A stretch of 53,873 bases of DNA. It comes from an uncultured Desulfobacteraceae bacterium (lineage in GTDB: Bacteria > Desulfobacterota > DSM-4660 > Desulfatiglandales > HGW-15). The translations under genes were made by a program, and so were the position numbers. Positions 13,527-33,621 of this stretch are shown one piece after another; position 1 is the first letter of the stretch, and the number at the start of each line of letters is the position of its first letter. Where the stretch lies: positions 1 through 53,873 of the forward strand of contig CAZXWJ010000002.1 of NCBI GenBank assembly GCA_964644375.1, written 5' to 3'. A model generated the notes under the pieces. The model did no database searches. It had not been told where the DNA came from and saw only the letters and a program-made list of their open reading frames with translations.

Positions 13527-14337
13527 CTTCCAACTCTCTATCGGCCTAGGGTTTCAAAAGTTTTTATCTACGATGGGGTGTTGGTATTTTTGTTGAAAGG
13601 GAACACGTTGTCTCTGTCCGTGGCGATCACTTCTAAGGATTTAAAGGGGGCACACTCCTAAGTTATGCGCCCGTCAAAACGGAAATCCGGCGTGCCAAGC
13701 TACTGGAGATAAAAAAGATTCCGTTCACACTCAGATTCACTGATTCCTTTGATACCCGTCCTTACTTAAAATGAAAATGCGTAGAACAGAGATTTCTTTT
13801 TAAAAACACGTCTTCTCATGGTGAAATTCAGGGTGATTGTAGAAAATTGACAGTGTGACAACACAGATTTGGCCGGATTTTTTTATCGGGAATTCTTGTG
13901 AGGGCCTTGCGAGAATGAAGAGGCTCCGATTCACTGCACAAAATGGAGCTAAAGATCAATCTGACCGGTAACGTGAGGATCCCGCCCGCATATTTTTCGT
14001 GAGATAAAAGGCATTTACGCTTTAGGCCATATAAATTTATCCATAATTTACAGCAATAAATATTACAATCCAGGGGTATACGATGTCAACATAAATGAGG
14101 TCTCGATGAAATTCAATGGAACAGGATAGAAATACAGGTAACGCTTGTCTTGAAAAATAGTGCTTTTAAATTTCAGTTATTTTTACTTTCATGGATTCAG
14201 TTATCAAAATACACTATTGTAATTTCATGATACTTTATGGTATTTTTTTACATAAAATATTTGCAAACATTTACATAAATCTTCATCTTGCTTCAGGGTA
14301 AAAAGCTAACCTACTGAAATTATAAAAAATAAAAATT

Positions 14338-14352
14338 TGGCTTAAATATTGC
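14338..14352 (+). promoter_or_regulatory. Sigma54-like -24/-12 element facing the polysaccharide locus
   Basis: TGGCTTAAATATTGC has the exact GG-N10-GC spacing of the TGGCAC-N5-TTGC consensus. It lies about 745 nt upstream of the first locus gene, in an AT-rich region where chance matches are plausible. Confidence 0.25.
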
Positions 14353-15095
14353 TTATTAATGACAAGATGAATTTTATTTCAAAACGTTTCGTCTGCAATC
14401 ATTAACTAAATTTTCTCATGCAACATGCTTCTGAATTTGGTGTATGTCGCTCCAGCTAAGACACGAATTCTGTTCTATGAGAAGCATCCAATCTGCACTC
14501 AAATCGATCTGCTTGTTTTCAAGCCAGACATCAACGCAACCCACAATCATCGACGACTTTTATTCGGTTTAGAACTTTTCATTCTGTAAACGTGGTCAGG
14601 TAAAACCCAGCACGGCTATTGCAAATGACCTTTGCCGAAACCTCACGCCCGGCTCTCTTAACCCGAATTTTTTGTGGCACCACCAAGATAGACAGGGCAC
14701 GATATACGAATTCCGTGAATCATCACACACTATACGACATGGACGGCAACGCATTACATTGATGCCTGAATATAGATATGGAATTTCGATCGGTTCCATT
14801 CGGAAAGCCTCATCTGAGCAATTGAGTGCGACAAGGGGGCCGCCTATCATATCGCCTTTACTTAGGAAAACATAAATATTCCCCTGTTTCAGGACCTGAC
14901 ACCATGCTGCGTCATGGGTCTGGTTGAGTCGAACTTTATGCTTTCAAGGTGATGTTTACAAAAAATATCTTTTAATGATTCCTTGCCTATCGGCGGCAGT
15001 GTCTCCAATCGAGAAGTTGATAAATAAAGCATTGAACACAATCTTCTTAACGGACACTGTCCAATCAACCGACAACCTTTCTAAGGCGTTGAGAG

Positions 15096-16358
15096 ATGGC
15101 GATGAAAAGGGAAAGAGTCCTCATTACGGGATGCGGGGGAATGCTCGGCAACGCATTATACCCATATTTCGAGTCCTGGTATGATCATGTCTTGGCCACG
15201 GATAAAACAATCGACGAAGAATGGCTGGGCATGCTGGATATAAGAGAAGATGATAAGCTCTTTGAGCTTTTTCGCGAATACAAGCCGGATATTGTGCTGC
15301 ATCTGGCCGCTGAAACGGACCTGGAATTCTGTGAAACCCATCCAGATAAGGCCAGGGAAACCAATGAAAATGCAACCAAAAACATTGCCAAGCTTTCGGA
15401 AGAATATGGTGCCACGCTCGTCTATATCAGCACCGCCGGTGTTTTCAATGGTAAAAAAAGTGAGTTTTATACCGAAGCAGATCCGCCGAATCCTATCATG
15501 ATTTATGGAAAGACCAAATATGCCGGTGAAACGCATACCCTTGAACATTGTTCCAAATCATTCGTCGTCCGGGCCGGTTGGATGATGGGAGGAGGGAGAA
15601 GAAAAGAGAAAAAGTTTACTTACAAAATACTTCATCAGATCGTGGAAGGACGGAAGGAGATTTTTGCCGTCGTAGATAAATGGGGAACCCCCACATACAC
15701 ATATGATTTTGCAATCAATTTGTTTCTGCTTCTTGAAACCCGAAAATATGGACTTTATCACATGGTTTGTTCCGGAAAGGCTACCCGTTACGATGTCGCC
15801 GGGGAAATAATCCGCCTCTGTAATCGTCACGACATCCAACTCACCCCTGTCCATTCCGATTTCTTTTCCAAGGAATATTTCGCACCCCGGCCCGATTCCG
15901 AAATGATGATAAACCGCAACCTGAACACGCTGGGGATCAATCACATGCGGTCGTGGAAGGCTGCGCTATATGATTACATCAAGAATCAATTCCCCGATTA
16001 CATTGACGGAAAGAATGCATCGGATTCTCAAACTCCTCATATTCCCAGCCCCTATAACTTACACGACAACTCACCGGACTCGGAGCGACGGCGAGCGACT
16101 CGTCATACCTATCCTTCCACGGTTGAGTATGCGGTTTTAAACGGACAACCGGATCATTACGCAAAAAACCTTACCAAAGGCATCGTTATCGACATCAGTG
16201 ACTCGGGATTTTGTATGTATGTGTTTGATCAGCTTAAAATGGGCAAACATATCACCCTAAATAAGGGCGCGCTACCCACAAAACACAAACGCGCAACCGT
16301 TCAATGGGTCCGCCACGAGAGAAGTGGCGTATTCAGAGCCGGATGTACTTTTTCATAA
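15096..16358 (+). CDS. RmlD-like NAD(P)-dependent sugar-nucleotide reductase/epimerase fused to a C-terminal PilZ domain
   Basis: The N-terminal SDR part has 'VLITGCGGMLGNAL', 'YGKTKYAGE' (YxxxK) and an RmlD-type layout. The C-terminal ~95 aa carry both PilZ c-di-GMP signatures, 'RRRATR' (aa 331-336, RxxxR) and 'DISDSG' (aa 366-371, D/NxSxxG), followed by 'ATVQWVRHERSGVFRAGCTF'. Confidence 0.8.
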   Translation: MAMKRERVLITGCGGMLGNALYPYFESWYDHVLATDKTIDEEWLGMLDIREDDKLFELFREYKPDIVLHLAAETDLEFCETHPDKARETNENATKNIAKLSEEYGATLVYISTAGVFNGKKSEFYTEADPPNPIMIYGKTKYAGETHTLEHCSKSFVVRAGWMMGGGRRKEKKFTYKILHQIVEGRKEIFAVVDKWGTPTYTYDFAINLFLLLETRKYGLYHMVCSGKATRYDVAGEIIRLCNRHDIQLTPVHSDFFSKEYFAPRPDSEMMINRNLNTLGINHMRSWKAALYDYIKNQFPDYIDGKNASDSQTPHIPSPYNLHDNSPDSERRRATRHTYPSTVEYAVLNGQPDHYAKNLTKGIVIDISDSGFCMYVFDQLKMGKHITLNKGALPTKHKRATVQWVRHERSGVFRAGCTFS

Positions 16359-16439: not shown

Positions 16440-17981
16440 ATGAGAGTTTTATTCATTTACACTGATTTAAGTTCAGAAGTTGGATACTCGTCCGGCATCG
16501 GCATTCTGTCCGCCATTTTAAAAAAAAACGGCCACCAGACAAAGCTTATACATGTATCAGACGAAATCGGCTATCCATTGGACAATCTTCGAATCAACCG
16601 GGATATTCATAATTTTCAACCCGGCCTCATCTGTTTCTCCATTACCACCAACCATTGGTTTTCCTCCAGGCGAATCGGTATAAGTGTCCGACAAAACAGC
16701 AATACTCCCATCATCGTCGGGGGGCACCATCCCACGTCGGATCCAGAGCAGGTCATTCGGGAACCGTGGATTGACTTGCTTTGCCGCGGGGAAGGAGACA
16801 GGGCTTTGCCCGAAGTTGTCAGGCGCCTTGAGGCGGGAACACCTATGGACGGAATCCCCAACATCTTTCACAAACGAAATGGCCAAGTGTTTCGCGAACG
16901 TATCCTGGACTGGGTGGAGGACCTGGACACCCTGCCCGTTGAAGACCATGAGATCTTCAATTTTGGGAAAATCGTCGAAACGCGGAATGGATGGGCAGAG
17001 GTTATTGTGACCAGAGGCTGCCCATATCCCTGTAGCTATTGTTTCAACAAACCCCTGTTAAATGACTATAAAAGGACATTCGAGCAAATCGAAGGCCTGC
17101 ATTTCGACACAAAAAAATTTACGAACCGCAGGAGAAGCGTCGATGCGGTGATTTCAATGTTAAAGGGGATGAAAGAGGGCTATCCGAATATTGAACATTT
17201 CACTTTTGTTGACGATATCATGGCCCAAGACAGTCCTTGGTTCAGAAAATTTGCCGAACGTTATGCCGATGAAATCGGCCTTCCATACGCTTGTACTTCC
17301 CAGCCTCTGCTTTTCAACGAAAACCTGGCAAGGCTGCTCAAAGCATCAGGCTGCAAAGTGGTAAAGATGGGTATTGAGGCGGGAAATGAAAATATCAGAA
17401 GGACTGTGTTAAACCGACGAATAAGCAACGAGTACCTGGAAAAAGTCTTTCATATCGCAAGAGAATTCGACCTCAAACCACAGGCCTTCAACATGATCGG
17501 CATTCCCGGCGAAACTTTCAAAAACATGATGGAAACGGTGCGCCTTAACGCCCTGCTCAGGCCTTATATCGTATGGCTTTCGACCTTTAATCCATACCCC
17601 GGTACGGAACTTTACAAAAAGTGTCTTGAAAAAAACATGATAAATCAATCGAAAATCGATTCTGTTGAATCCTATCGAGAGGATTCGGTATTGAAGGATG
17701 AATTTCTTCCTCCCCTTGAGTTTAAAAAAATACGCGTGATGTTCCGTTGGCATCTGAATGCCTTTCTCGCCAATGGCGCGGAGAAAGTCTATAGGGAAAA
17801 CATAAGAGAGATTGATGGATTATCAGACGACCACTGGCGCAATGGAGAGGCGGAAAAAATATTTCTTGAGCGCGACAGAGAATTGGATCGTCATTTCAGG
17901 CACCGTTTGATCGATCATTATATCAGAAAGAAATATATCAATATCCTTTGGGGAGAACTTTACAATTATGACTTGACCTAA
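16440..17981 (+). CDS. B12-binding-domain radical SAM protein (class B), copy 1
   Basis: The N-terminal Rossmann-like cobalamin domain shows 'ICFSITTNHW..PIIVGGHHPT'. The radical SAM cluster motif is 'RGCPYPCSYC' (CxxxCxxC), followed by 'VKMGIEAGNENIRRTVLNR'. Confidence 0.85.
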   Translation: MRVLFIYTDLSSEVGYSSGIGILSAILKKNGHQTKLIHVSDEIGYPLDNLRINRDIHNFQPGLICFSITTNHWFSSRRIGISVRQNSNTPIIVGGHHPTSDPEQVIREPWIDLLCRGEGDRALPEVVRRLEAGTPMDGIPNIFHKRNGQVFRERILDWVEDLDTLPVEDHEIFNFGKIVETRNGWAEVIVTRGCPYPCSYCFNKPLLNDYKRTFEQIEGLHFDTKKFTNRRRSVDAVISMLKGMKEGYPNIEHFTFVDDIMAQDSPWFRKFAERYADEIGLPYACTSQPLLFNENLARLLKASGCKVVKMGIEAGNENIRRTVLNRRISNEYLEKVFHIAREFDLKPQAFNMIGIPGETFKNMMETVRLNALLRPYIVWLSTFNPYPGTELYKKCLEKNMINQSKIDSVESYREDSVLKDEFLPPLEFKKIRVMFRWHLNAFLANGAEKVYRENIREIDGLSDDHWRNGEAEKIFLERDRELDRHFRHRLIDHYIRKKYINILWGELYNYDLT

Positions 17982-18031: not shown

Positions 18032-19975
18032 ATGCTTTCCCATGAAATCGAAAAAAATCAGGATGTAATTAACATTCGAACGTATGTCGATATCCTTTTA
18101 AAGCAGAAAATGTTCATCATCGTATTTTGCCTTTCTGCTATGCTCTTTTCTCTGGGTATCACCTATTTCATTTCGGAAAAATATGAGACCGGTACTACGA
18201 TCTTTTATCGTCCTATCGAGATCAGCTTGATCAGGCAGAAAAGTACCGAGGCCTTCGGGGCGCCGGTACCTGCTCCGCCTTTTAAGGTGATTATCCAGAC
18301 TCTCCGGGATGCTGCAAAAAATGAGATCGTCCTTCGACCCGTGGTCAAGGCACTCCGACTGGACGAAGCATTGGAGATGGAATATGAAAGCCGGTATCAA
18401 CGCTGGTACTACGAGTCAAAGGACTACATAAAAACCAAAATTATAGATCTTTGGACGCTTCTCAAATATGGCAAGCTCATTGAAGAGGACCCTACCGTGG
18501 CCGCCATAATAAAACTGAGAAAAAATATGAATATCACCTCGACCAAAGACTCATACATCTACGTCCTCTCTGTCAGGGATAAATTCCCGAAAAGGGCGGC
18601 GATGATCGTCGATGCCGTTGGTGAAGGACTGGAAAATTTTCTAAAAGGGGAATATCAAAACCCGACCAAATGGAAATTGACACAGCTCACTGAACAGGTG
18701 ACAGCCAAACAACAAGAATTAAGTGAGCTTCGAGCACAACGCGAAGAGATATTTAAAGGGAATAGATTTATTTCCATACCGAATGAAACCTCAGAGGGAC
18801 TCTCCAACCTCTATGGTATGGAACTTGAGGAAATCAATCTTTCCGTTCAAATTGAAAAGAAAAGAAAAAGCATCGCAGAACTGGAAGCAGAGCTTCGAAA
18901 AGGCGCGAAAGATTATGTTCAGTCGGAAGACTTCAAAAAGATGAAGTCCGACCGACTTTTTCAAGAAATCGAACTCAAGGGCCTGATAGCCGGTAGGCAA
19001 CATCTGAGAACTTCAATCGCAAGATTGAAAAGAGAACTACAGGAACTTCCGGCCCTGAAGACAAAGATGGACGAAGTGGAAACAAAGATCGGTTCAGCCA
19101 CTCGTGCTCACGAGCATGCCCGGGATCTGTGTACTGAATTGCTTACACAAGTGCTGACTTTTCAGGACGGTACCCAAATTCTTAACAAGGCCGTGGTGCC
19201 GGACAAGCCTGTTCAGCCCATCAAAGTTTACCATGTCGGTTTATCCCTGCTTCTGAGCCTTGGCATTTCAACTGCTTTGGCCTTTTTATTCGATTTTTTA
19301 AATATTCGGACCTTCGTTTCTACAAGATCATCGAAAGGTTTCACAAAAGGCCCCGACGGGTCGTCCCAATTGACTGGGGCGAATTTGAATCCGTCTCATA
19401 CAGAAAGGCTCCTTGAAGATCTTTCCAGACAACTGGATGCAAAAGGCGGCAGTCTCTTCCTGCGAAAAGAAAACCATCTCGAGCTTGCCCATTCCCTTGA
19501 TCGGGGCCATAAACCTGCGCTCATCCCCTTTCCGCTCAAATCTGACAGCATTTTTGAACACGCGTTGAGAAAAAGACAGCCGATCATTACGGATGATCTC
19601 ATCGGAAAAAAAGATGTGCGATTAAGCGGCCGCAAAGGCTATCAAAATGAATCGATGATTGCATTGCCCATGATAGATGCTTCAGGGGAAGTGGTTGCCA
19701 TGGTTTCGCTCCATAACAAAACATCATCCCCTTTCACCTATGACGATAAACAAAAAGCCTTGACCATTTGGCGCACATACCTGATGGGACATCAGAGCAT
19801 GAACGAGGAAGATCTTACCGAGATTTATGCACCATCTATGCGGCGCACAAAACTTCCCTCAAAAGGACGAAAACAATTCCGGCTTGCATCACTCCTTCTA
19901 TATTCGTCGATAGGGGTCTGCGGTGCCGTGTTGTCTGCCTTGGGCTACTATTTCCTCAACAAATTGGGGTATTGA
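18032..19975 (+). CDS. Polysaccharide co-polymerase (Wzz/GumC-type chain-length determinant) with a cytoplasmic GAF domain and no kinase domain
   Basis: The Wzz-like N-terminus is 'INIRTYVDILLKQKMFIIVFCLSAMLFSLGITYFI'. A long coiled-coil periplasmic region follows, then 'VVPDKPVQP' and TM2 (aa ~400-423). The GAF-like region (aa ~455-585) reads 'GGSLFLRKENHLELAHSL..QPIITDDL..ESMIALPMIDASGEVVAMVSLHNK..FTYDD'. A third TM lies at the C-terminus. There is no Walker A motif. Confidence 0.75.
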   Translation: MLSHEIEKNQDVINIRTYVDILLKQKMFIIVFCLSAMLFSLGITYFISEKYETGTTIFYRPIEISLIRQKSTEAFGAPVPAPPFKVIIQTLRDAAKNEIVLRPVVKALRLDEALEMEYESRYQRWYYESKDYIKTKIIDLWTLLKYGKLIEEDPTVAAIIKLRKNMNITSTKDSYIYVLSVRDKFPKRAAMIVDAVGEGLENFLKGEYQNPTKWKLTQLTEQVTAKQQELSELRAQREEIFKGNRFISIPNETSEGLSNLYGMELEEINLSVQIEKKRKSIAELEAELRKGAKDYVQSEDFKKMKSDRLFQEIELKGLIAGRQHLRTSIARLKRELQELPALKTKMDEVETKIGSATRAHEHARDLCTELLTQVLTFQDGTQILNKAVVPDKPVQPIKVYHVGLSLLLSLGISTALAFLFDFLNIRTFVSTRSSKGFTKGPDGSSQLTGANLNPSHTERLLEDLSRQLDAKGGSLFLRKENHLELAHSLDRGHKPALIPFPLKSDSIFEHALRKRQPIITDDLIGKKDVRLSGRKGYQNESMIALPMIDASGEVVAMVSLHNKTSSPFTYDDKQKALTIWRTYLMGHQSMNEEDLTEIYAPSMRRTKLPSKGRKQFRLASLLLYSSIGVCGAVLSALGYYFLNKLGY

Positions 19976-20090: not shown

Positions 20091-21065
20091 ATGAACCAGA
20101 AGAACGTCAAGGGCATTATTCTGGCAGCGGGAAAGGGGACAAGGATGGCGCCATTCAGCAGCCGATATCCGAAACCCCTCTTGCCGATCTGCAACAAGCC
20201 TTTACTGCACTATCAAATTGAATCGATGAGAAATATCGGTATCGAAGAAATTATTATCGTGATCGGCCACCTCGGGTACGAAATTGCACAGACCTTTGGC
20301 GACGGGCGTCAGTATGGTGTTGCCCTCAAATACATCGAGCAAAGGGAAACCCTGGGCATCGCACATGCGGTCGGGAAGCTGGAGCCTCATATTTCCTCTC
20401 CCATCTTTCTCTTTCTTGGAGACATATTCTTTGTCACCGAGGATTTGTCAAGCATGAGAGAAATCATGCTGGAAAGAGAGGCATCCGCCGTGCTGGCCGT
20501 CAAACACGAAAAGGACGCCGAAGCCATCAAAAAAAATTTCGCCATCCGGCTGGACGACAAGGGCTTGGTAAAAAGAGTCGTCGAAAAGCCACGGCATCTC
20601 ACCAACAGCCTAAAAGGGTGCGGTTTGTATCTTTTTGACCAGCAGGTTTTCGACGCCATAAGGCGAACACCACGAACCGCCATGCGGGATGAATACGAAA
20701 TCACCGACACCATTCAAATCATGGTCGACGATGGGCTGCCCATTCATATCTCGCCAGTCGTTCGCTGGGACATGAACGTCACCGTCCCCGGAGATGTACT
20801 GGCCTGCAATCTTCACCAGCTGCAAAGGCTTGGCGAGAAAAATCTCATAGGCGATTCGGCCCAGATCCATCCAGGGGCGGAGATCACAAATTCGGTTGTC
20901 GGAAAGGGCGCAGTGATTCAGTATCCCATACACATTTCGAATTCCGTTATTTTCCCGAATACCCTTGTGGCCACCGGCCACGACGTCGAACAATTCATCA
21001 TGACACCGGAGCATCAGATCGATTGCCGGCAATTCAACGCAGAGGAATGGAATGGGACCCTATAA
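20091..21065 (+). CDS. Sugar-1-phosphate nucleotidylyltransferase (NDP-sugar pyrophosphorylase)
   Basis: The signature is 'GIILAAGKGTRMAPFSSRYPKPLLPICNKPLL'. The C-terminal hexapeptide-repeat-like segment is 'IGDSAQIHPGAEITNSVVGKGAVIQYPIHISNSVIF'. Confidence 0.85.
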   Translation: MNQKNVKGIILAAGKGTRMAPFSSRYPKPLLPICNKPLLHYQIESMRNIGIEEIIIVIGHLGYEIAQTFGDGRQYGVALKYIEQRETLGIAHAVGKLEPHISSPIFLFLGDIFFVTEDLSSMREIMLEREASAVLAVKHEKDAEAIKKNFAIRLDDKGLVKRVVEKPRHLTNSLKGCGLYLFDQQVFDAIRRTPRTAMRDEYEITDTIQIMVDDGLPIHISPVVRWDMNVTVPGDVLACNLHQLQRLGEKNLIGDSAQIHPGAEITNSVVGKGAVIQYPIHISNSVIFPNTLVATGHDVEQFIMTPEHQIDCRQFNAEEWNGTL

Positions 21066-21984
21066 CAAAGCACTGGTTACCGGGGGCGCCGGCTTTATTG
21101 GATCGCACCTGTCTAAAGCGCTTTTTTCGCAAGGGGTGGCAGTGGTTATTCTTGACGATCTTTCCATGGGAAAGATGGAAAATGTTCCGGCTGATGCTGC
21201 CTTTGTCCGGGGAGATGTCCGCTCTCAGGAAGATGTCTCCCGAGTGCTCGACGGTGTGGATATCGTATTCCACGAGGCTGCCCGGGTCAGCATTCGAACT
21301 TCCGTGAGGGAATTTTATGAGGATGCTCAAACAAATCTGATGGGAACACTCAATCTTTTGAGATGCTGCGCACAGAGTGATGTCAAAAAAGTCATATTCG
21401 CCTCATCGATGGCCGTTTATTCGGATGGCGATGCCTCGTCTAGAATAACAGAGGATTATCTCACGGAACCCATATCGCCTTACGGTATCTCAAAACTGGC
21501 AAGCGAAAAGTACTGTCTTCATTTTTCGAGGGAAACCGGCATCTCATGCAACGTGCTGCGATATTTCAACACCTACGGTCCTGGTCAGGCTTTCACCCCT
21601 TATGTCGGTGTCATTACCATTTTCATCAACCGGCTTTTAAAGAAAAAAAGTCCCGTGATCTTCGGCGATGGCAAACAGCGTCGTGATTTTGTGCATGTGA
21701 GCGACATTGTTTCAGCCAACATCCTATCCATGCAGGCTGATCTTCCCATCGGGATTCTAAATGTTGGCACCGGGAGAGGCACATCTGTCTACGAAATCGC
21801 AGAGATGCTCTGTCATGAGATCGCGCCGGACGTTCGTCCCGTCTATGCCGCTTCTCAGCCCGGGGAATTGAGATATTCGGTGGCCGATATCGGAAGGGCT
21901 GAAAAGGCCTTAGGGTACGGACCCAGCGCGTCGTTACAGCGGAAAATGGCCGAAGTCATTGAATATCTAAAGAAAAAAAAGTGA
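21052..21984 (+). CDS. NAD-dependent epimerase/dehydratase (GalE/UDP-sugar 4-epimerase-like SDR)
   Basis: Motifs are 'ALVTGGAGFIGSHL', 'ASSMAVY' and 'SPYGISKLASE' (YxxxK). It overlaps the upstream gene by 14 nt. Confidence 0.85.
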   Translation: MGPYNKALVTGGAGFIGSHLSKALFSQGVAVVILDDLSMGKMENVPADAAFVRGDVRSQEDVSRVLDGVDIVFHEAARVSIRTSVREFYEDAQTNLMGTLNLLRCCAQSDVKKVIFASSMAVYSDGDASSRITEDYLTEPISPYGISKLASEKYCLHFSRETGISCNVLRYFNTYGPGQAFTPYVGVITIFINRLLKKKSPVIFGDGKQRRDFVHVSDIVSANILSMQADLPIGILNVGTGRGTSVYEIAEMLCHEIAPDVRPVYAASQPGELRYSVADIGRAEKALGYGPSASLQRKMAEVIEYLKKKK

Positions 21985-22016: not shown

Positions 22017-22913
22017 ATGAGATGGTTCATTTTGCAAAGCATGAGGGCAAGGTCTATGCGAAGTGACTCGGAGCGTAAGATACTGTTTAACGATCAAAGC
22101 CTACGGGCTGAATTTGTTTTCGTTGAATCAGACGAAGAATATGAAGAGGAAACTCAGGGCAAAATTTTCTGTCTGCCCGCCGGCCGAGTGTATGGACTGG
22201 ACATGCCCCTGAGGGAAAAAACACTCAGGACCCTTTACAGGGCAGGAGAAGTCCTGGCCAGCCTGACGGCTCTGATTATTTTTTTTCCGGTGATGCTTGC
22301 CATTGCGCTTGTCATCAAACTGGACTCGCCCGGCCCTGCTCTTTTTTTCCAAAAAAGGGTCGGTCGCAGTAAACTGGCCAAGGGAAGATCATTGAATAAA
22401 AAGGACGGTGGTCCCGTTTCATCTGGTGATTCCGAAAATATATTTTATGTTCCTCAAACATTCTGGTTCATCAAATTCAGAACGATGTATGCGGATGCCA
22501 AAGAGAGATTTCCAAAACTTTACAATTATAATTACTCAAAAAAGGAGATCGATCATATTCCCTTCAAAGTGGAAAAGGACCCCCGCATAACGCGGGCCGG
22601 TCAGTGGCTGAGATCATCGACATTGGACGAATTGCCCAATTTTTGGAATGTATTAACCGGGGATATGCGACTGGTCGGACCCAGGCCTGAAATTCCGGAG
22701 ATGCTGCCCAATTATCGGCCCCATCAAATGACAAAATTTACGGTTAAACCGGGAATAACCGGCCTGCCTCAGATCAACGGAAGAGGACGGTTGACCTTCC
22801 AGAGGACAGTGGCTTACGATCTGGAATACGTTGAGAAGAAGTCTGTGTTTCTTGATCTGAAAATTTTGGCCGTAACGGTATGGAAGGTGATAACAAGGCA
22901 AGGTGCATTTTAA
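22017..22913 (+). CDS. Initiating phosphoglycosyl transferase (bacterial sugar transferase family, WbaP/EpsL-like)
   Basis: There is a single TM, 'LASLTALIIFFPVMLAIALVI', followed by 'DSPGPALFFQKRVGR', 'KFRTMYADA', 'DPRITRAGQWLRSSTLDELPNFWNVLTGDMRLVGPRP'. The start is uncertain; an alternative ATG lies at 22203. Confidence 0.85.
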   Translation: MRWFILQSMRARSMRSDSERKILFNDQSLRAEFVFVESDEEYEEETQGKIFCLPAGRVYGLDMPLREKTLRTLYRAGEVLASLTALIIFFPVMLAIALVIKLDSPGPALFFQKRVGRSKLAKGRSLNKKDGGPVSSGDSENIFYVPQTFWFIKFRTMYADAKERFPKLYNYNYSKKEIDHIPFKVEKDPRITRAGQWLRSSTLDELPNFWNVLTGDMRLVGPRPEIPEMLPNYRPHQMTKFTVKPGITGLPQINGRGRLTFQRTVAYDLEYVEKKSVFLDLKILAVTVWKVITRQGAF

Positions 22914-26309: not shown

Positions 26310-26408
26310 CACGATGTATTTTTTCTATACCCATACAAATGGGTAATGATGCACGGTTAGGGCTAAGAATTTTCGGGTTTCATACCGTTAGTGAATAGAC
26401 GAGGATCA

Positions 26409-27833
26409 ATGATTATGAAGGTCGTCTTTCTGCAACGAGATTCATTTGTAAAGATTTCCATCGAGTTGCTGTCCGGTATTCTAAAGCAAAACGGGCATGC
26501 ATGCGAACTCTATATCGAGTCCGGCGAAAATCAATTTCTTTCTTCGGCGCTTTCGAGCGGTGCAGACTTGTTCGCCTTTTCCTGTACGACCGGAGGAGAG
26601 CAATGGGTCTATGATACCGCTGAGAGGCTCAAAAAGCAAACCTCAACGCCCATCATCGTGGGCGGCCCCCATACCACATTCTTCCCTCAAATGATCCATA
26701 ATCCTCACATCGATTACATCTGCAGAGGCGAGGGGGAGGAGGCCCTCCTCGAACTACTTTCGGTTCTCCATCGACCTGACGCCATCAGACAGATTCGAAA
26801 CATCTGGTCAAAAGACTTGCAGGGAAACGTTCATGAAACGGAGGTGAGGCCCTTCTTTCGTGATCTCGATAACATTCCCTTGCCGGATTTTGGCATCTAT
26901 ACCAAATACCCCTACATGACACCATACAACTTGGAGATGTTCCCCGTTATGACCGGTCGAGGATGCCCTTTTGCCTGCAGTTACTGCTTTAACAAGGCCT
27001 ACCGTGACCTCTACCGAAAAGGCGGCCGGTATTTAAGAAAAAGAAGCCCTGAGGTGATGATCGAGGAGCTTGTTAGGGCTAAAAAAAAGTGGGGAGTCAA
27101 AAAGATCAACTTTGTAGACGATTCCTTTTTTCTTTTTCCGAAATGGTTCGAGGAGTTTTACCCTCTTTATATAAAGCATGTAAACTTACCCTTTATCATC
27201 AACGTCGAAGCGACTCATGTGAAGGACGATCTTGTAAAAAAAGTAAGTGAAATGGGTTGCATTTGTGTAAGGATGGGAGTTGAGACCGGAAACGATACCC
27301 TGAGGAAAGAAGTCCTCAACAAAAAAGTCAACAATGAGCAGATTAGAAGAGCGGCCGCCAGCATCAAGAAATACGGCATGAACCTGAGCACATACAACAT
27401 GCTCGGGCTCCCCGGAGAAACTTTCGAAAACGCCATGGAGACCTATCAATTGAACAGGGAAATCGGCACGAATTTCGCGCAGTGCTCATTACTGCAGCCA
27501 TATCCCGGGACGAAAATAAACGATTATGTTCGAGAAATGGGCATCTATGGACAGACCGACCGAGAGATAACGTTAAACGCGTCATTTTTTGCAACAAGCA
27601 AAATCATATTGGAAAATGAAAGGGAAATCACTAATCTTCAAAAGCTCATGCAGGTATTCATTCAAATGAAGGTGCCTGCGAGTACAGTCAGGAAGATCGT
27701 AAAACTTCCGGAAAATTTATTTTTTCACTATGTTTTTAGGCTCAGTTTTATTATCGGAAAGATAAAAAATCAGCATATAAAGCTGATTCCTTTGATCCGC
27801 CTGGGGTTGCATTCGCTTAGCTACATGAAATAG
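26409..27833 (+). CDS. B12-binding-domain radical SAM protein (class B), copy 2
   Basis: The start was chosen at ATG 26409 (GAGGA upstream). Motifs are 'FAFSCTTGGEQW..PIIVGGPHTTFFP', 'GRGCPFACSYC' (CxxxCxxC) and 'VRMGVETGNDTLRKEVLNK'. It is collinear with the 16440 gene. Confidence 0.85.
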   Translation: MIMKVVFLQRDSFVKISIELLSGILKQNGHACELYIESGENQFLSSALSSGADLFAFSCTTGGEQWVYDTAERLKKQTSTPIIVGGPHTTFFPQMIHNPHIDYICRGEGEEALLELLSVLHRPDAIRQIRNIWSKDLQGNVHETEVRPFFRDLDNIPLPDFGIYTKYPYMTPYNLEMFPVMTGRGCPFACSYCFNKAYRDLYRKGGRYLRKRSPEVMIEELVRAKKKWGVKKINFVDDSFFLFPKWFEEFYPLYIKHVNLPFIINVEATHVKDDLVKKVSEMGCICVRMGVETGNDTLRKEVLNKKVNNEQIRRAAASIKKYGMNLSTYNMLGLPGETFENAMETYQLNREIGTNFAQCSLLQPYPGTKINDYVREMGIYGQTDREITLNASFFATSKIILENEREITNLQKLMQVFIQMKVPASTVRKIVKLPENLFFHYVFRLSFIIGKIKNQHIKLIPLIRLGLHSLSYMK

Positions 27834-28025
27834 GCACGATTGAGTCGATGGAATCAAACCGGCCATGAGAGAGCGAAGGACGCTTGGTGTGGAACTTTTA
27901 CTTTGAGAGAAAACCGATAAGGCCCACTTGGCCAAGGTCCGGGATACGCGGCTGAGTGGGTGACCGTTGGTCCTTAGCGGGATATTGTTGCAGGAAAACG
28001 CATGTAAAGAAGGCCAGTCTATCAA

Positions 28026-29342
28026 ATGGAAGGCAAATCATATCATACCGTCATCCTCGGGGCAGGGTTGTCGGGCTTGAGTGCCGCCTATCATTCCGGG
28101 TATCCGGTTTTCGAAAAACGGTGTGCGCCGGGAGGGACTGCGGGTTCCGTAAGAAAGGAAGGATATGTCTTTGATTTCGGCATCCACGTGATCCACAGCA
28201 GGAACCCCGATTTTCATACCCTGATGCAAGAGATCGGTGCCGAATTTATTGCACATATACGCAGGGGGTTGATTTACAGTTATGGCGCCTACGCTGCATA
28301 TCCTTTCCAGGTCAATACCTCACATCTTTCTCTCAAGCTACGGCTACAATGTGTGCTCGGTTATCTCTTTCGTAAAAGGCATGCATCCATCCACAGTTAT
28401 GAGGACTGGATCATTCAAAATTTCGGGGCGGGGTTTGCCGAATATTTCTTAATTCCGTATTCAAAAAAATTCTGGGGCATATCACCCCGTGAAATGACGC
28501 ATGAATGGACGGGACAGCAGCGAGTACCCAAACCCAGAACCATGGATGTGATCAAGGGGGCCTTCCGGGATCAGAATAGCGGGTTCGGGCCAAATGCCGA
28601 ATTTTCCTACCCATCAAGACAGGGTGAGGGTTTTGCCGGTATCGCAGAAGCCTTTTCGTCAAAGATCGACGATATTCATTACAACATGAAGGCCACGGCC
28701 ATAGACCCCCGGAACAAGGTCATTATCTTCAACGGGGGCGATTTTATCATCAGGTATGACAAGATAATTTCGTCCCTCCCGTTGCCCGAACTGATCGGTA
28801 TATTGTCAGATCCGCCCCTGCAGGTGAAAAGGGCGATCGATCGCCTGCGTTTCAATTCCATTGCCATCGTCAATTTGGGGCTGAATCGATCCATCATCGA
28901 TCCGAATCATTGGATTCATTATCCGGATCCCGATATCCGTTTTTTCCGGATCAGCTTCCCGAGTAATTTCTGCGATGGCCTCAACCCGAAAGGGACCAGT
29001 ACGATTCAGGCGGAAGTCTCTTACGAGACCACCACACCGCCCGACAAAGAGGAACTCACCCATCAGATTCACCGGGATCTCATTAAAGTCGGCATCCTAA
29101 AATCTTCAGATCATGCGGTTTTTAAAGATGTTCTTTTCCTGAAATATGGCTATGTCATTTATGACCACCATAGGATGGAGGCCGTGCACACGATTCACCG
29201 GTATCTGAATGCGCTGGACATCTTTCCATGCGGCCGTTACGGCGCTTGGGAATATCAGTGGACTGATGAAGCGATTCTCAGCGGCAGGGATATGGCCCTG
29301 CAACTACTGCAGAGAGGTGATGTCGATACGGTTCAGCTATGA
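28026..29342 (+). CDS. FAD/NAD(P)-binding oxidoreductase (amine-oxidase/UDP-galactopyranose-mutase-like fold)
   Basis: The N-terminal dinucleotide fold is 'HTVILGAGLSGLSAAYH..FEKRCAPGG'. The C-terminal 'CGRYGAWEYQWTDEAILSG' is typical of this flavoenzyme group. Substrate unknown. Confidence 0.7.
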   Translation: MEGKSYHTVILGAGLSGLSAAYHSGYPVFEKRCAPGGTAGSVRKEGYVFDFGIHVIHSRNPDFHTLMQEIGAEFIAHIRRGLIYSYGAYAAYPFQVNTSHLSLKLRLQCVLGYLFRKRHASIHSYEDWIIQNFGAGFAEYFLIPYSKKFWGISPREMTHEWTGQQRVPKPRTMDVIKGAFRDQNSGFGPNAEFSYPSRQGEGFAGIAEAFSSKIDDIHYNMKATAIDPRNKVIIFNGGDFIIRYDKIISSLPLPELIGILSDPPLQVKRAIDRLRFNSIAIVNLGLNRSIIDPNHWIHYPDPDIRFFRISFPSNFCDGLNPKGTSTIQAEVSYETTTPPDKEELTHQIHRDLIKVGILKSSDHAVFKDVLFLKYGYVIYDHHRMEAVHTIHRYLNALDIFPCGRYGAWEYQWTDEAILSGRDMALQLLQRGDVDTVQL

Positions 29343-31060: not shown

Positions 31061-32548
31061 GTGCAAAATAAGGCTTCCACTTTAATTTTGAAATATGGCA
31101 TGACCTCCCTTTCAGGCGCTTTGATTGCCGTCGCCGCCTGGCAGATTTTACGGCTGGAGTTTCGGTACGCCCTCGCCGTTATCGGGGGCATCGTTGTATT
31201 ATGTGCAGGGTTGGCCCTGATCAAGCGCTTGGACGACTACCTTATCTATATTCTGATCTTCAATGTGACCTTTGCGCAGTTCGGAAAATGGATGTTGCCC
31301 CAGCGAGAGGACATCGTATTTGCGCGCGGCATCAGTGTGGGGCTTGCAGAGTTAATCATTTTGATGGCCTACTTGTCATGGTATGCAAAAATTTTCATCT
31401 CCCGTACAGAATCGATGCCAAGGTTTCAAAAGGCTGAATATCTCATCCTCTTGCTGATTCTGTGTCAGGTGATGTCCATGATCGGTGCACCTAAAAAAAT
31501 CCTGAGTTTTCTCGATATCGTTTACAACATCAAGCATGCGTTGATTTATTTTTTTATCGCCCGAAAGATCAAATACGGTCATTTAACGGGCATTATTCTT
31601 ATTTTTTTATTTGCGATTTTTCTTGAAAGCTCGATAGGAGTCTACGAACGCTATACAGGTAATGTGGGGATTGGGAATGCCAAAGGGAGTGCCGAGGGAC
31701 TGGGAACACAGTTCATTGTCCCCGGCATCGAGCATGTCATTCGGTCAGAAGGGACAACTGCGGATTCCCATTCTCTCGGCCTATACTTCGTCATGCTATT
31801 GCCGGTTCCCCTGGTTTTCACAGCCATGAGATTCTTAAAAACGCCTTACAAGGTCGCAACGGGATTGGTTTTTATTATCGGTTCCATCGGTCTTTTAGTC
31901 ACCTTTACACGCTCCGGATGGATCTGTTTTGCCCTCTCTTCGGCCTTTTCTCTAAGCGTCATCATCTTCCTATGGAGGCAGAGCCGGGCCATTATTATGC
32001 TCCTCGCTGTTCTTCTGGGTTTGAGTCTTTTTTACCCACAGGGCTATCAAAAAATCCACCAGCGCTTCCAGAGCGCTCCATGGGAACTGATCACCGAACG
32101 ATTGGATCAGTCGAAAACGGCGTTCGGCGTATGGAAAAGTCATTTTTTTTTCGGATGCGGGGCAGCAAACTACATGCCGTATATCGAAAACACAGATACT
32201 CCCCAGTATGACACCGGTGAGCTTCCCGCCCATGTTATGGTTCTTCTGATTGCGGCCGAGATCGGATTGTTTGGCGTGACCGCTTATTATGGCATCATTT
32301 TTTTGGCCATGTTCCGGTGCTGTCAAATGCTTGGCTGTAGCGATCGACTGATCAGGGGGGTGGCGCTCGCCCTCCTGACGGCATTTATCGGCTATCTTCT
32401 CGATGGTCTGACGAGTCCGCTGGGTCGCAATGTCGTACCCTATTACCAGTTGTGGGTGTACATCGGCATCAGTATGTCCCTAAAAAGAGTCGTGGAGGAA
32501 AAGGGCACCCTATCCGTGAAACCGATCAACGAGGAGGTTACCCCATGA
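31061..32548 (+). CDS. O-antigen ligase/polymerase-family membrane protein (Wzy-like)
   Basis: This is a polytopic membrane protein of 495 aa with a large loop after 'TFTRSGWICFALS' and 'FFFGCGAANY', as in Wzy_C-type proteins. It has a GTG start. Confidence 0.7.
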   Translation: MQNKASTLILKYGMTSLSGALIAVAAWQILRLEFRYALAVIGGIVVLCAGLALIKRLDDYLIYILIFNVTFAQFGKWMLPQREDIVFARGISVGLAELIILMAYLSWYAKIFISRTESMPRFQKAEYLILLLILCQVMSMIGAPKKILSFLDIVYNIKHALIYFFIARKIKYGHLTGIILIFLFAIFLESSIGVYERYTGNVGIGNAKGSAEGLGTQFIVPGIEHVIRSEGTTADSHSLGLYFVMLLPVPLVFTAMRFLKTPYKVATGLVFIIGSIGLLVTFTRSGWICFALSSAFSLSVIIFLWRQSRAIIMLLAVLLGLSLFYPQGYQKIHQRFQSAPWELITERLDQSKTAFGVWKSHFFFGCGAANYMPYIENTDTPQYDTGELPAHVMVLLIAAEIGLFGVTAYYGIIFLAMFRCCQMLGCSDRLIRGVALALLTAFIGYLLDGLTSPLGRNVVPYYQLWVYIGISMSLKRVVEEKGTLSVKPINEEVTP

Positions 32549-33615
32549 ATAGGAGGCTGAAAATAAGCGTCGTGATCGCCTCCTACAACCGCAGCATGAC
32601 GATTCCCAGCACCCTTCGCTGCCTTGCCGAACAGACCCTACATCCCTCGGATTACGAGGTGATTGTGGTTGACGACGGCTCCCCGGATGACACCGAGGGG
32701 GCCGTCAGATCTGCTATGGAACGCCATCCGTACGATCTGCGATATCTCAGACATGCAAACAGGGGAATTTGCTATACCCAAAACCGAGGTATCCGCCACG
32801 CACGGGCACCGCTTATTCTCCTGATTCCGGACGACATCAAACTGGTCCCCGGGGCATTGGCGGCCCATGTCGACAGACATGAGCGCCATCCCGACCCACA
32901 TATTGCCATACTGGGTAAGGTCCTGCAATCGGACGAACTCGCCACGGAATCCGTTTTTTTGAGGAATTGGGACCCCTTTAAATTTAAGACCCTTAAGCAT
33001 ATCCATGAACTGCCCTATTATTATTTCTGGGCCTGTAACATTTCGTTCAAAAAGGACTTTGTGATCAAAAACGGCATGTTCAATGAATCGCTGGTGCGGG
33101 GAGGGGCCGACGGCCATGAAGATGTTGAACTCGGCTATCGACTCGCCCGAAAAGGTCTTCGTATTCTTTACAGCAACAAGGCCCTCGGATATCATTATCA
33201 TATCGTGACCCTGAAAGATGCGCTGCGAAAATACTACCACAAGGGTCAGACCTGGCCCAAATTTCGCCGCAGTGCGAATCACCCCGAAATAACGGTGCAT
33301 TATCATGTTTTGAGCATTCACACGCTCAAGGATTACATGCGAACGTTTCGACATCCAAACCGCCTCCTCGGCGTGGACAGAAACCCTGTTTTGCTCCTTT
33401 TTCGCCACGTGGCGCATGCCCTGTTTTTTAATTTTATGTCTGTTCCCTTCCTGTGGCTGCCCCTTATGTTCAGAGCGGAAAAATTTCCGCAGCTAGCAAA
33501 ACTCATGCATCCGCAATTGTACCGAGGTGTCCTGTTTCACTTTTTTTTAAAAGGCGCCGTCCACAATCTGAGAGGTTTTTGCAGGACACAATTATACGGA
33601 ATAAAAACAGGATAG
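32545..33615 (+). CDS. Family 2 glycosyltransferase
   Basis: ATG 32545 overlaps the upstream stop (ATGA). Motifs are 'ISVVIASYNRSMTIPSTL..VIVVDDGSPDDT', 'LLIPDDI' and 'GHEDVELGYRLARKG'. Confidence 0.8.
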   Translation: MNRRLKISVVIASYNRSMTIPSTLRCLAEQTLHPSDYEVIVVDDGSPDDTEGAVRSAMERHPYDLRYLRHANRGICYTQNRGIRHARAPLILLIPDDIKLVPGALAAHVDRHERHPDPHIAILGKVLQSDELATESVFLRNWDPFKFKTLKHIHELPYYYFWACNISFKKDFVIKNGMFNESLVRGGADGHEDVELGYRLARKGLRILYSNKALGYHYHIVTLKDALRKYYHKGQTWPKFRRSANHPEITVHYHVLSIHTLKDYMRTFRHPNRLLGVDRNPVLLLFRHVAHALFFNFMSVPFLWLPLMFRAEKFPQLAKLMHPQLYRGVLFHFFLKGAVHNLRGFCRTQLYGIKTG

Positions 33616-33621
33616 ATTCCC

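What the first reader, a model, noticed from the sequence alone, without database searches (positions are those of the whole stretch)
16068..16358. PilZ (c-di-GMP receptor) domain fused to an RmlD-like sugar-nucleotide reductase, the first gene of the locus
The last ~95 aa of the 420-aa SDR protein carry both canonical PilZ signatures: RRRATR (RxxxR, aa 331-336) and DISDSG (D/NxSxxG, aa 366-371). They are spaced 29 residues apart and are followed by a beta-barrel-like 'ATVQWVRHERSGVFRAGCTF'.

Established PilZ-regulated polysaccharide enzymes are synthases or co-polymerases, such as BcsA and Alg44. A PilZ domain fused directly to a precursor-forming NDP-sugar reductase/epimerase would put c-di-GMP control at the nucleotide-sugar supply step. 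I am not aware that this has been described.
Basis: partly seen in the sequence, partly recalled or inferred. Interest (0 to 1): 0.75.

Follow-up and report, generated by a model that had tools for sequence, protein, structure and literature searches.

The report
PilZ sensor fused to sugar reductase
The first gene of a polysaccharide-export locus encodes an RmlD-type sugar-nucleotide reductase with a genuine but atypical PilZ (cyclic-di-GMP receptor) domain on its C-terminus, a rare, recurrent and apparently undescribed architecture that would let the biofilm second messenger act on a soluble precursor enzyme rather than on the polymerase.

Summary
Window 15096-16358 (+) encodes a 420-aa protein. 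Residues 7-297 are an RmlD-type SDR (Pfam E=2.9e-64; predicted fold TM 0.93-0.95 to solved RmlD).

Residues 331-419 are a PilZ beta-barrel. They carry RRRATR (331-336) and DISDSG (366-371). The window's own PilZ score is below Pfam's cut-off (16.7-20.4 vs 22.5 bits). Three other lines support the call:
- 31 of 40 homologous tails hit PilZ (best E=5e-10).
- The motif residues are the most conserved tail positions (R332 40/40, R336 39/40, D/N366 40/40, G371 38/40).
- The AlphaFold model's top 33 PDB matches are all PilZ domains.

It differs from canonical PilZ in lacking the C-terminal helix.

The fusion recurs in about 40 protein clusters, from Desulfobacterota, Nitrospirota and Brocadiaceae. 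It always sits in one conserved Wzx/Wzy-type cassette: Wza, SDR, B12-radical-SAM, PCP, flavoprotein, PGT, Wzy, GT2. The same cassette exists in other phyla with an unfused SDR.

No paper describing the fusion was found. c-di-GMP binding and its effect on the enzyme are inferred, not shown.

Verdict: a real, new variant of a known kind, of moderate-to-good interest.

The parts
15096..16358 (+). Gene for the 420-aa SDR-PilZ fusion protein. An alternative start, ATG 15102, matches the homologues' 'MK.ERV' N-terminus.
   Evidence: ORF list; Pfam; 40-sequence alignment A1.
15114..15986 (+). RmlD-type extended SDR domain, aa 7-297.
   Evidence: PF04321 E=2.9e-64. Best PDB sequence match is 5u9c, a dTDP-4-dehydrorhamnose reductase, E=1e-43. 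Foldseek TM normalised to target is 0.93-0.95 to 3sc6.
15129..15149 (+). Gly-rich NAD(P)-binding motif GCGGMLG, aa 12-18.
   Evidence: M16, L17 and G18 are invariant; G12, G14 and G15 are at least 90% conserved in A1.
15504..15518 (+). Catalytic YxxxK, Y137-K141. Together with S112/T113 it forms the SDR triad.
   Evidence: Y137, T140 and K141 are invariant and S112/T113 at least 90% conserved in A1. They align to YGRSK of 5u9c.
16011..16085 (+). Disordered inter-domain linker, aa 306-330, variable in length between homologues.
   Evidence: pLDDT is below 50 for residues 306-330 in the full-length AF2 model. Alignment A1 shows 0-35-residue length variation here.
16086..16103 (+). RRxxxR c-di-GMP-binding motif (RRRATR, aa 331-336) at the linker/barrel junction.
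   Evidence: R332 is present in 40/40 and R336 in 39/40 homologues.
16104..16352 (+). Six-stranded PilZ beta-barrel, aa 337-419. The protein ends one residue later, so there is no C-terminal helix.
   Evidence: AF2 strands E337-348, 360-367, 371-376, 385-391, 399-407 and 413-419. Foldseek top 33 hits are all PilZ domains.
16191..16208 (+). D/NxSxxG c-di-GMP-binding motif (DISDSG, aa 366-371).
   Evidence: D/N366 40/40, S368 34/40, G371 38/40.
13527..15095 (.). A 1.5-kb AT-rich stretch without a convincing gene, upstream of the locus. It is the presumed regulatory/promoter region.
   Evidence: Sequence and ORF list. No Rfam family, including no c-di-GMP riboswitch. The promoter scan found no more than chance.
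16440..17981 (+). B12-binding radical-SAM enzyme, a conserved neighbour of the SDR.
   Evidence: Pfam B12-binding plus Radical_SAM. It lies next to the SDR in L002, L004, L005, L008, L009, L012, L081 and L082.
18032..19975 (+). Polysaccharide co-polymerase (Wzz/PCP-like) carrying a C-terminal GAF domain, aa 458-572.
   Evidence: Pfam GAF_2 and weak Wzz. Only about 10 of 41 homologue clusters carry the GAF domain.
20091..21984 (+). Sugar-1-phosphate nucleotidyltransferase (20091-21065) and a GalE/4,6-dehydratase-like SDR (21052-21984).
   Evidence: Pfam and NCBIfam, all below equivalog cut-offs.
22017..22913 (+). Initiating polyprenyl-phosphate sugar phosphotransferase (Bac_transf).
   Evidence: Pfam E=8e-55; conserved in the cassette.
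26391..29342 (+). Second B12-radical-SAM enzyme (26391-27833) and an amine-oxidase-like flavoprotein (28026-29342). Both are conserved cassette members.
   Evidence: Pfam. tblastn gives 56-63% and 40-57% identity in the related loci.
31061..36201 (+). Wzy polymerase (31061-32548), two GT2 glycosyltransferases, and the Wzx flippase (34615-36201).
   Evidence: Pfam Wzy_C, Glycos_transf_2 and Polysacc_synt.
39596..40621 (+). Wza-type outer-membrane polysaccharide export protein. In most related loci it sits immediately upstream of the SDR.
   Evidence: Pfam Poly_export plus SLBB; synteny.

Best explanation
The gene encodes a soluble two-domain protein.

The N-terminal 300 residues are a catalytically intact RmlD-type NAD(P)H-dependent NDP-4-keto-sugar reductase. 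It is a core enzyme of a conserved Wzx/Wzy-dependent exopolysaccharide cassette.

The C-terminal 90 residues are a helix-less PilZ beta-barrel that keeps the two c-di-GMP-binding motifs. The RRxxxR motif sits at the end of a 25-residue disordered tether, directly after the reductase's substrate-binding lobe.

Proposed mechanism, all inferred:
- At high c-di-GMP the nucleotide is clamped between RRxxxR and DxSxxG.
- This orders the tether and repositions the barrel against the reductase or against a membrane partner.
- The change switches the reductase's activity and/or its association with the membrane assembly machinery.
- Supply of the special sugar for this polysaccharide is thereby coupled post-translationally to the biofilm second messenger.
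For: Shown:
- Both domains are real, by Pfam, PDB sequence match and fold match.
- The SDR catalytic and cofactor residues are invariant.
- The c-di-GMP-contacting motif positions are the most conserved positions of a tail with 28% mean identity, and 32 of 40 homologues keep both motifs. This argues for selection on ligand binding.
- The fusion recurs in about 40 clusters from three phyla. It is always inside the same Wza-SDR-rSAM-PCP-flavoprotein-GT2-PGT-Wzy cassette.
- The same cassette exists with an unfused SDR in Pirellulales, Nitrospirota, Gammaproteobacteria, Acidobacteria and Krumholzibacteriia. The PilZ is therefore an accessory regulatory add-on to a core enzyme.
- RRxxxR lies at the boundary of the low-confidence linker (pLDDT below 50 for residues 306-330).

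Inferred from established knowledge (my own, not tested here):
- In YcgR/PlzD-type proteins the RxxxR motif lies in the inter-domain linker, and c-di-GMP binding re-orients the two domains.
- In BcsA the PilZ domain relieves auto-inhibition in cis.
Against: - No binding or activity data exist.
- The window's own PilZ score is below Pfam's gathering threshold.
- The domain lacks the C-terminal helix that mediates partner contacts in all characterised canonical PilZ proteins.
- No fused-specific conserved surface was found on the SDR domain. Only position 207 differs. This gives no support for a tight intramolecular interface.
- 8 of 40 homologues have a degenerate motif.
- No diguanylate cyclase or phosphodiesterase gene lies in the window or in the inspected flanks.
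- The SDR's substrate is unknown. It scores below the rmlD equivalog cut-off, and no rmlB/rmlC genes are in the window.
Confidence: 0.55

Rival explanations
1. Adaptor model. The PilZ tail does bind c-di-GMP, but its target is another component of the machinery, such as the co-polymerase, the initiating transferase, Wzy or the radical-SAM enzyme. The regulated step would then be assembly or polymerisation, as with Alg44 or MapZ acting in trans. The reductase would merely carry the sensor, or be recruited for substrate channelling, with its catalytic rate unchanged.
For: - The long, poorly conserved, disordered tether fits a module that reaches out to a partner.
- There is no fused-specific surface on the SDR.
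- Unfused relatives carry strongly basic C-terminal tails of 40-45 aa with median net charge +6 to +7 at the same position. This suggests the SDR's C-terminus generally serves for localisation or partner binding.
- HfsK, a soluble holdfast-modifying enzyme, uses a short C-terminal extension for both membrane association and c-di-GMP binding (PMC5362036).
Against: - The usual partner-binding element of PilZ, the C-terminal helix, is missing.
- Domain fusion most simply implies that the fused enzyme itself is the regulated element.
- No partner has been identified.
Confidence: 0.27
2. Degenerate or ligand-independent PilZ. The barrel is a structural, oligomerisation or protein-interaction domain that no longer binds c-di-GMP. 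Non-binding PilZ proteins of this kind are known, for example the type IV pilus protein PilZ itself.
For: - The window's HMM score is sub-threshold.
- The missing C-terminal helix resembles the 'xPilZ' class, which has generally lost binding.
- 8 of 40 homologues have lost one or both motifs.
Against: - The window protein has both motifs intact.
- The motif residues are the best-conserved tail positions across three phyla. This is hard to explain without selection for ligand binding.
- The best structural matches are c-di-GMP-bound PilZ domains.
Confidence: 0.15
3. Artefact. The fusion arises from a chance motif coincidence, or from an assembly or frameshift error joining two genes.
For: The motif pair alone occurs in 0.86% of shuffled sequences.
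Against: - Forty independent clusters from different samples and phyla have the same continuous ORF.
- The fold prediction and HMM evidence agree.
- There is no alternative reading frame downstream.
Confidence: 0.02

Closest known systems
BcsA cellulose synthase C-terminal PilZ domain (PDB 4p00, 5ej1)
   Same: - A PilZ beta-barrel fused in cis to the C-terminus of a polysaccharide-pathway enzyme.
- RxxxR and DxSxxG motifs are present.
- It is among the best structural matches: E=2.7e-4, TM 0.67.
   Different: - BcsA is a membrane-embedded processive synthase in a synthase-dependent pathway.
- Its PilZ keeps the C-terminal helix, which packs on the GT domain.
- Here the carrier is a soluble SDR in a Wzx/Wzy-dependent locus, and the helix is absent.
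Alg44 alginate co-polymerase PilZ domain (PDB 4rt0)
   Same: A c-di-GMP receptor built into an exopolysaccharide machine. It is a structural match (ranks 21 and 23).
   Different: Alg44's PilZ is N-terminal, on a membrane-fusion-type co-polymerase, and dimerises through its C-terminal helices. It is not on an enzyme of sugar-nucleotide metabolism.
YcgR / PP4397 / VCA0042 (PlzD) two-domain PilZ proteins (PDB 3kyf, 5y6f, 2rde)
   Same: - Best structural matches (ranks 1, 4, 5 and 17).
- The RxxxR motif lies in the linker between an N-terminal domain and the barrel, as it does here.
   Different: Their N-terminal domain is a PilZ-derived PilZN domain and their output is flagellar motor control. 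Here the N-terminal domain is an enzyme.
RmlD dTDP-4-dehydrorhamnose reductase (PDB 5u9c, 3sc6, 1vl0, 1kbz)
   Same: - Fold and sequence of aa 1-300 match.
- The Gly-rich motif and the S/T-Y-K triad are present.
- It shares the 'RAGWMxGGG..K..KF' insertion with 5u9c.
   Different: - It scores below the TIGR01214 equivalog cut-off.
- There is no rmlB/rmlC context.
- Its constant partners are a B12-radical-SAM enzyme and an amine-oxidase-like flavoprotein.
- It carries a C-terminal sensor domain.
Caulobacter HfsK, a c-di-GMP-binding N-acetyltransferase of holdfast biogenesis (PMC5362036)
   Same: A soluble polysaccharide-pathway enzyme of a Wzx/Wzy-type system whose C-terminal extension mediates c-di-GMP binding and membrane association. 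It is the nearest functional analogy.
   Different: HfsK has a GNAT fold with a 25-aa extension and no PilZ domain. It acts on the polymer rather than on a nucleotide sugar, and c-di-GMP inactivates it by releasing it from the membrane.
MAT2B, the RmlD-like regulatory subunit of human methionine adenosyltransferase (PDB 4ktt, 2ydx)
   Same: An RmlD-fold protein. It shows that this fold can serve in regulation and in protein-protein complexes.
   Different: It is eukaryotic, has no PilZ domain, and has no link to polysaccharides.

Membership tests
PilZ domain (Pfam PF07238, canonical c-di-GMP receptor) | The protein's own match to the PF07238 profile is above the curated gathering score. | tested here: not met
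   16.7 bits for the whole protein and 19.6-20.4 bits for the tail alone, against a cut-off of 22.5. E=7e-4 to 1e-2, in register over profile positions 1-85 of 102.
PilZ domain (Pfam PF07238, canonical c-di-GMP receptor) | Homologous tails as a family match PF07238. | tested here: met
   31 of 40 tails hit at E<=0.01, best 5e-10, and no other family is hit. Precomputed PF07238 is recorded on 10 of the full-length homologues.
PilZ domain (Pfam PF07238, canonical c-di-GMP receptor) | RxxxR (RRxxxR) motif N-terminal to the barrel. | tested here: met
   RRRATR at aa 331-336; R332 in 40/40 and R336 in 39/40 homologues.
PilZ domain (Pfam PF07238, canonical c-di-GMP receptor) | (D/N)xSxxG motif on the barrel. 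| tested here: met
   DISDSG at aa 366-371; D/N 40/40, S 34/40, G 38/40.
PilZ domain (Pfam PF07238, canonical c-di-GMP receptor) | Six-stranded anti-parallel beta-barrel fold. | tested here: met
   The AF2 model has pLDDT 84 and six strands. The 33 best Foldseek PDB hits are PilZ domains, with TM 0.57-0.69.
PilZ domain (Pfam PF07238, canonical c-di-GMP receptor) | [quoted passage not shown] | tested here: not met
   The protein ends one residue after strand 6. No frame continues past the stop. The window's whole sub-clade ends within about 8 residues of strand 6. The Pfam match stops at profile position 85 of 102.
PilZ domain (Pfam PF07238, canonical c-di-GMP receptor) | Specific binding of c-di-GMP. 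| not testable with these tools
   Needs DRaCALA, ITC or MST on purified protein.
RmlD, dTDP-4-dehydrorhamnose reductase (PF04321 / TIGR01214) | Match to the RmlD_sub_bind domain model. | tested here: met
   PF04321 scores 217 bits against a cut-off of 27, over aa 7-297.
RmlD, dTDP-4-dehydrorhamnose reductase (PF04321 / TIGR01214) | Score above the rmlD equivalog cut-off, implying the same function. | tested here: not met
   TIGR01214 scores 211.4 bits against a cut-off of 224.05.
RmlD, dTDP-4-dehydrorhamnose reductase (PF04321 / TIGR01214) | GxxGxxG cofactor motif and the S/T-Y-K catalytic triad. | tested here: met
   GCGGMLG at aa 12-18, S112/T113 and Y137-x3-K141 are invariant or at least 90% conserved, and align to 5u9c.
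RmlD, dTDP-4-dehydrorhamnose reductase (PF04321 / TIGR01214) | RmlD three-dimensional fold. | tested here: met
   Foldseek TM normalised to target is 0.93-0.95 to 3sc6 and 0.89-0.92 to 5u9c and 1vl0.
RmlD, dTDP-4-dehydrorhamnose reductase (PF04321 / TIGR01214) | Genomic association with rmlA, rmlB and rmlC (the dTDP-L-rhamnose pathway). | tested here: not met
   No dTDP-sugar 3,5-epimerase and no equivalog-level rmlA or rmlB was found among the ORFs scanned in the window. The constant neighbours are instead a B12-radical-SAM enzyme and an amine-oxidase-like protein.
RmlD, dTDP-4-dehydrorhamnose reductase (PF04321 / TIGR01214) | Reduction of dTDP-4-keto-6-deoxy-L-mannose. | not testable with these tools
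   Needs an enzyme assay.
PilZ-gated exopolysaccharide synthases and co-polymerases (BcsA, Alg44 type) | The PilZ domain sits on the membrane synthase or co-polymerase of a synthase-dependent pathway. | tested here: not met
   The carrier is a soluble SDR. The locus encodes Wzx, Wzy, PCP, Wza and an initiating phosphotransferase, so it is Wzx/Wzy-dependent.

The most novel reading that the evidence does not exclude
The C-terminus of this cassette-specific reductase is a general regulatory socket, and the PilZ fusion is only its most recognisable form.

On this reading the Arg-rich '[DE]RR-x4-5-[DEN]RR ... [DE]RR-x4-xRR' repeat tails of the unfused relatives in Gammaproteobacteria, Acidobacteria and Krumholzibacteriia would be minimal c-di-GMP-binding or c-di-GMP-sensitive membrane-anchoring peptides. 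The PilZ forms begin their tail with the same 'ERRxxxR'.

A widespread, multi-phylum Wzx/Wzy polysaccharide system would then be gated by c-di-GMP at the sugar-nucleotide reductase. Together with the GAF domain on the co-polymerase, the window's locus would be a dual-input, post-translationally controlled exopolysaccharide machine.
Probability: 0.15. Interest if true: 0.8.

Novelty: new variant of a known kind. Interest (0 to 1): 0.58.

Why it matters
Known direct c-di-GMP receptors in polysaccharide production sit on membrane synthases or co-polymerases of synthase-dependent systems (BcsA, Alg44, PelD, PgaCD), or act through transcription.

A PilZ domain on a soluble sugar-nucleotide reductase in a Wzx/Wzy-dependent locus would add two things:
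- a new regulated step, namely precursor formation or delivery;
- a new PilZ output class, a cytoplasmic metabolic enzyme.

It also offers a natural, motif-bearing but helix-less PilZ. This can test whether the C-terminal helix is needed for signalling.

The carriers are uncultured Desulfobacterota, Nitrospirota and anammox Brocadiaceae. In these aggregate- and granule-forming organisms, control of the extracellular matrix is of ecological and engineering interest.

The hypothesis can be tested directly in vitro with one 420-aa soluble protein.

Tried and rejected
1. A c-di-GMP riboswitch or other known RNA in the 1.5-kb upstream region: an Rfam gathering scan of the whole window found nothing.
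2. A profile built from the tails against PDB sequences: only insignificant hits, with YpfA/MotI at E=0.55. The fold comparison was needed instead.
3. A word-indexed homologue search with the tail profile returned only 2 small proteins, so it gave no architecture census.
4. Stand-alone or otherwise-fused relatives of the tail in the 74 loci with an unfused SDR: none at E<=0.01 with the family HMM. A generic PilZ HMM was not run on those loci.
5. A fused-specific conserved surface on the SDR domain, as a sign of an intramolecular docking site: only position 207 stands out.
6. GGDEF, EAL or HD-GYP genes near the locus: none in the window ORFs scanned or in the flanks of L081, L082 and L084.
7. 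Single versus multiple origin of the fusion: a neighbour-joining tree places the fused forms in one half of the tree, interleaved with unfused ones. It has no support values and some 'unfused' entries may be truncated gene calls, so this is unresolved.
8. The promoter and terminator scan around the gene found no more than chance.
9. The canonical dTDP-rhamnose operon explanation was rejected. There are no rmlB/rmlC genes and the protein is below the equivalog cut-off.
Full report
**1. What is there**

The ORF 15096..16358 (+) encodes 420 aa. It follows a 1.5-kb AT-rich stretch with no convincing gene (13527-15095) and a divergently oriented upstream gene.

It heads a co-directional run of about 20 genes ending near 40621. 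In order these are:
- a B12-binding radical-SAM enzyme;
- a Wzz/PCP-like co-polymerase with a C-terminal GAF domain;
- a sugar-1-phosphate nucleotidyltransferase;
- a GalE/4,6-dehydratase-like SDR;
- a Bac_transf initiating phosphotransferase;
- a PD40 propeller protein and two unknowns;
- a second B12-radical-SAM enzyme;
- an amine-oxidase-like flavoprotein;
- GT2 transferases, Wzy, Wzx, a phosphodiesterase-family protein, a sulfotransferase and Wza.

This is a Wzx/Wzy-dependent exopolysaccharide locus.

**2. The observation**

- RRRATR at aa 331-336;
- DISDSG at aa 366-371, with 29 residues in between;
- ATVQWVRHERSGVFRAGCTF at aa 400-419.

The motif pair by itself is not strong evidence. 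It arises in 0.86% of shuffles of this protein.

The window's own match to PF07238 is in register (profile positions 1-85 of 102) but below the gathering score. It scores 16.7 bits in the whole protein and 19.6-20.4 bits for the tail alone, against 22.5.

**3. Why it is nevertheless a PilZ domain**

A homologue search returned 40 clusters of 403-436 aa (the window's own among them) that cover the whole protein.

- Scanned individually, 31 of the 40 tails hit PilZ at E<=0.01 (best 5e-10), and none hits any other family.
- The tails are only 28% identical on average. Even so, R332 is present in 40/40, R336 in 39/40, D/N366 in 40/40, S368 in 34/40 and G371 in 38/40. Thirty-two of 40 keep both motifs.
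- An AlphaFold2 model of aa 322-420 (pLDDT 84, pTM 0.73) is a six-stranded barrel.
- Its 33 best Foldseek matches in the PDB are all PilZ domains: PP4397, BcsA, YcgR, PA0012, MrkH, MotI, VCA0042, Alg44 and MapZ. Many of these structures are c-di-GMP-bound.

**4. How it departs from canonical PilZ**

The protein ends one residue after strand 6. No reading frame continues past the stop. The window's whole sub-clade ends within about 8 residues of that strand.

Galperin and Chou define canonical PilZ by a long C-terminal helix that mediates partner contacts in BcsA, Alg44, MapZ, MrkH and PilZ-FimX. The helix-less 'xPilZ' forms have generally lost the binding motifs (10.1101/814665).

The window's domain is therefore an unusual combination: helix-less but motif-bearing. 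Two other sub-groups of the fusion family carry 15-35 extra C-terminal residues. Whether those residues form a helix was not tested.

**5. The enzyme domain**

Residues 7-297 match RmlD_sub_bind (E=2.9e-64).

- The best solved relative by sequence is the Yersinia dTDP-4-dehydrorhamnose reductase 5u9c (E=1e-43). It shares the 'RAGWMxGGG..K..KF' insertion.
- The full-length model (pLDDT 85, pTM 0.84) superposes on RmlD structures with target-normalised TM of 0.89-0.95.
- The Gly-rich motif and the S/T-Y-K triad are invariant or nearly so, so an active reductase is expected.

It is not demonstrably RmlD in the strict sense. It falls below the TIGR01214 equivalog cut-off (211 vs 224 bits), and the window has no rmlB or rmlC equivalog.

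**6. Distribution and context**

Among one genome for each of 185,579 species, six carry the fusion: Desulfocapsa, a Desulfobacterales MAG, two Nitrospirota, a Brocadiaceae and a Geobacterales MAG. A named homologue comes from Candidatus Scalindua rubra.

At 50% identity the family collapses to about two representatives among 1.84 billion. It is rare and compact.

In every fused locus with enough flank, the gene lies in the same cassette: Wza, SDR-PilZ, B12-radical-SAM, PCP, amine-oxidase-like protein, GT2, PGT, Wzy, GT2.

The same cassette, with an SDR 55-70% identical but lacking PilZ, occurs in Pirellulales, Nitrospirota, Gammaproteobacteria, Burkholderiaceae, Acidobacteria and Krumholzibacteriia.

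The reductase is therefore a core enzyme of a widespread polysaccharide system, and PilZ is an accessory add-on in some lineages. A neighbour-joining tree places the fused forms in one half of the SDR tree, interleaved with unfused ones. Single gain with losses versus repeated gain is unresolved.

**7. Mechanism**

Shown:
- two intact domains;
- a 25-residue low-confidence tether (aa 306-330), variable in length between homologues;
- RRxxxR at the tether-barrel junction.

Inferred: c-di-GMP is clamped between RRxxxR and DxSxxG, as in all solved PilZ complexes. Clamping orders the tether and repositions the barrel relative to the reductase's substrate-binding lobe or a membrane partner.

I favour control of the reductase step itself, through its activity and/or its localisation (confidence 0.55). 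Fusion to this particular enzyme is the conserved feature.

The main rival (0.27) is that the barrel acts in trans on the assembly machinery. It gains some weight from three points:
- no fused-specific surface on the SDR;
- the strongly basic C-terminal tails of unfused relatives;
- the HfsK precedent, where a C-terminal extension couples membrane association and c-di-GMP binding (PMC5362036).

A ligand-independent, degenerate PilZ (0.15) is disfavoured by the motif conservation. An artefact is excluded (0.02).

**8. Novelty**

Full-text searches found no description of this architecture. The searches combined PilZ with dTDP-4-dehydrorhamnose reductase, RmlD, epimerase or nucleotide sugar. They also covered a 2023 review of c-di-GMP receptors and the PilZ domain survey.

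Database names for members are only 'NAD(P)-dependent oxidoreductase' or 'dTDP-4-dehydrorhamnose reductase'. Only 10 of the 40 carry a precomputed PilZ hit, which explains why the fusion has been overlooked.

It is a new variant of a known kind: a known sensor domain on a new class of output, in a pathway type where PilZ control was not known.

**9. Verdict**

The finding is real and correctly located. Its functional interpretation is plausible but unproven.

The interest is moderate to good (0.58). It is a clean, testable, previously unannotated architecture, but it extends an established paradigm rather than breaking it.

Noticed in passing
window 18032-19975 (+); also L084 11056-12984: The polysaccharide co-polymerase (Wzz/PCP-like) of the locus carries a C-terminal GAF domain (aa 458-572) where many PCPs carry a kinase domain or nothing. 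Only about 10 of 41 homologue clusters have it. It co-occurs with an SDR-PilZ gene in one other genome (GCA_050288385.1, L084), and elsewhere it accompanies an unfused SDR. The window's locus therefore has two small-molecule sensor domains grafted onto core machinery.
   Followed up: partly
Proteins P0084-P0119 (e.g. P0093, P0108, P0109) and P0022-P0064; loci L003, L006, L014-L019: Most 'unfused' relatives of the reductase are not tail-less. They carry basic C-terminal tails of 40-45 aa of two recurrent kinds. Twenty of 80 have Arg-rich repeats '[DE]RR-x4-5-[DEN]RR ... [DE]RR-x4-xRR' with median net charge +7. At least 12 of 80 have a Lys/Arg-rich '..IRIEEVK..' tail with median net charge +6. 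The PilZ-fused forms start their tail with the same 'ERRxxxR'. The function of these tails is unknown.
   Followed up: partly
window 16440-17981, 26391-27833, 28026-29342; loci L002-L021, L081, L082, L084: The RmlD-like SDR is persistently linked to a B12-binding radical-SAM enzyme and an amine-oxidase-like flavoprotein (NCBIfam 'PRK07208 hypothetical'). The SDR-flavoprotein pairing extends as far as Patescibacteria and a Woesearchaeota MAG (L022, L026, L029, L031). This suggests an uncharacterised sugar-modification pathway. The window has two paralogous radical-SAM genes, whereas the other loci inspected show one.
   Followed up: partly
window 45198-53801 (-): A 2867-aa ORF has two GH94 supersandwich domains, a GH94 catalytic domain and a glucoamylase-like domain, resembling a cyclic beta-1,2-glucan synthase. 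It lies in a block of about 60% G+C (46-52 kb), against 41-52% for the rest of the window. This suggests horizontal acquisition.
   Followed up: partly
Proteins P0131, P0134, P0139, P0141, P0144, P0152, P0156, P0211, P0274: Other representatives of this SDR family are 554-1525 aa long, with the SDR at one end. They are further, unexamined fusions of the reductase to other domains.
   Followed up: no
window 13527-15095: A 1.5-kb AT-rich (about 41% G+C) stretch lies upstream of the locus. It has only short ORFs with no evidence of coding, no Rfam match, and no promoter signal above chance. It is an unusually long leader or regulatory region for a polysaccharide operon.
   Followed up: partly
window 36204-39411 (+): The locus also encodes a type I phosphodiesterase/nucleotide-pyrophosphatase-family protein and a sulfotransferase. 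This hints that the polysaccharide is sulfated or phospho-substituted.
   Followed up: no
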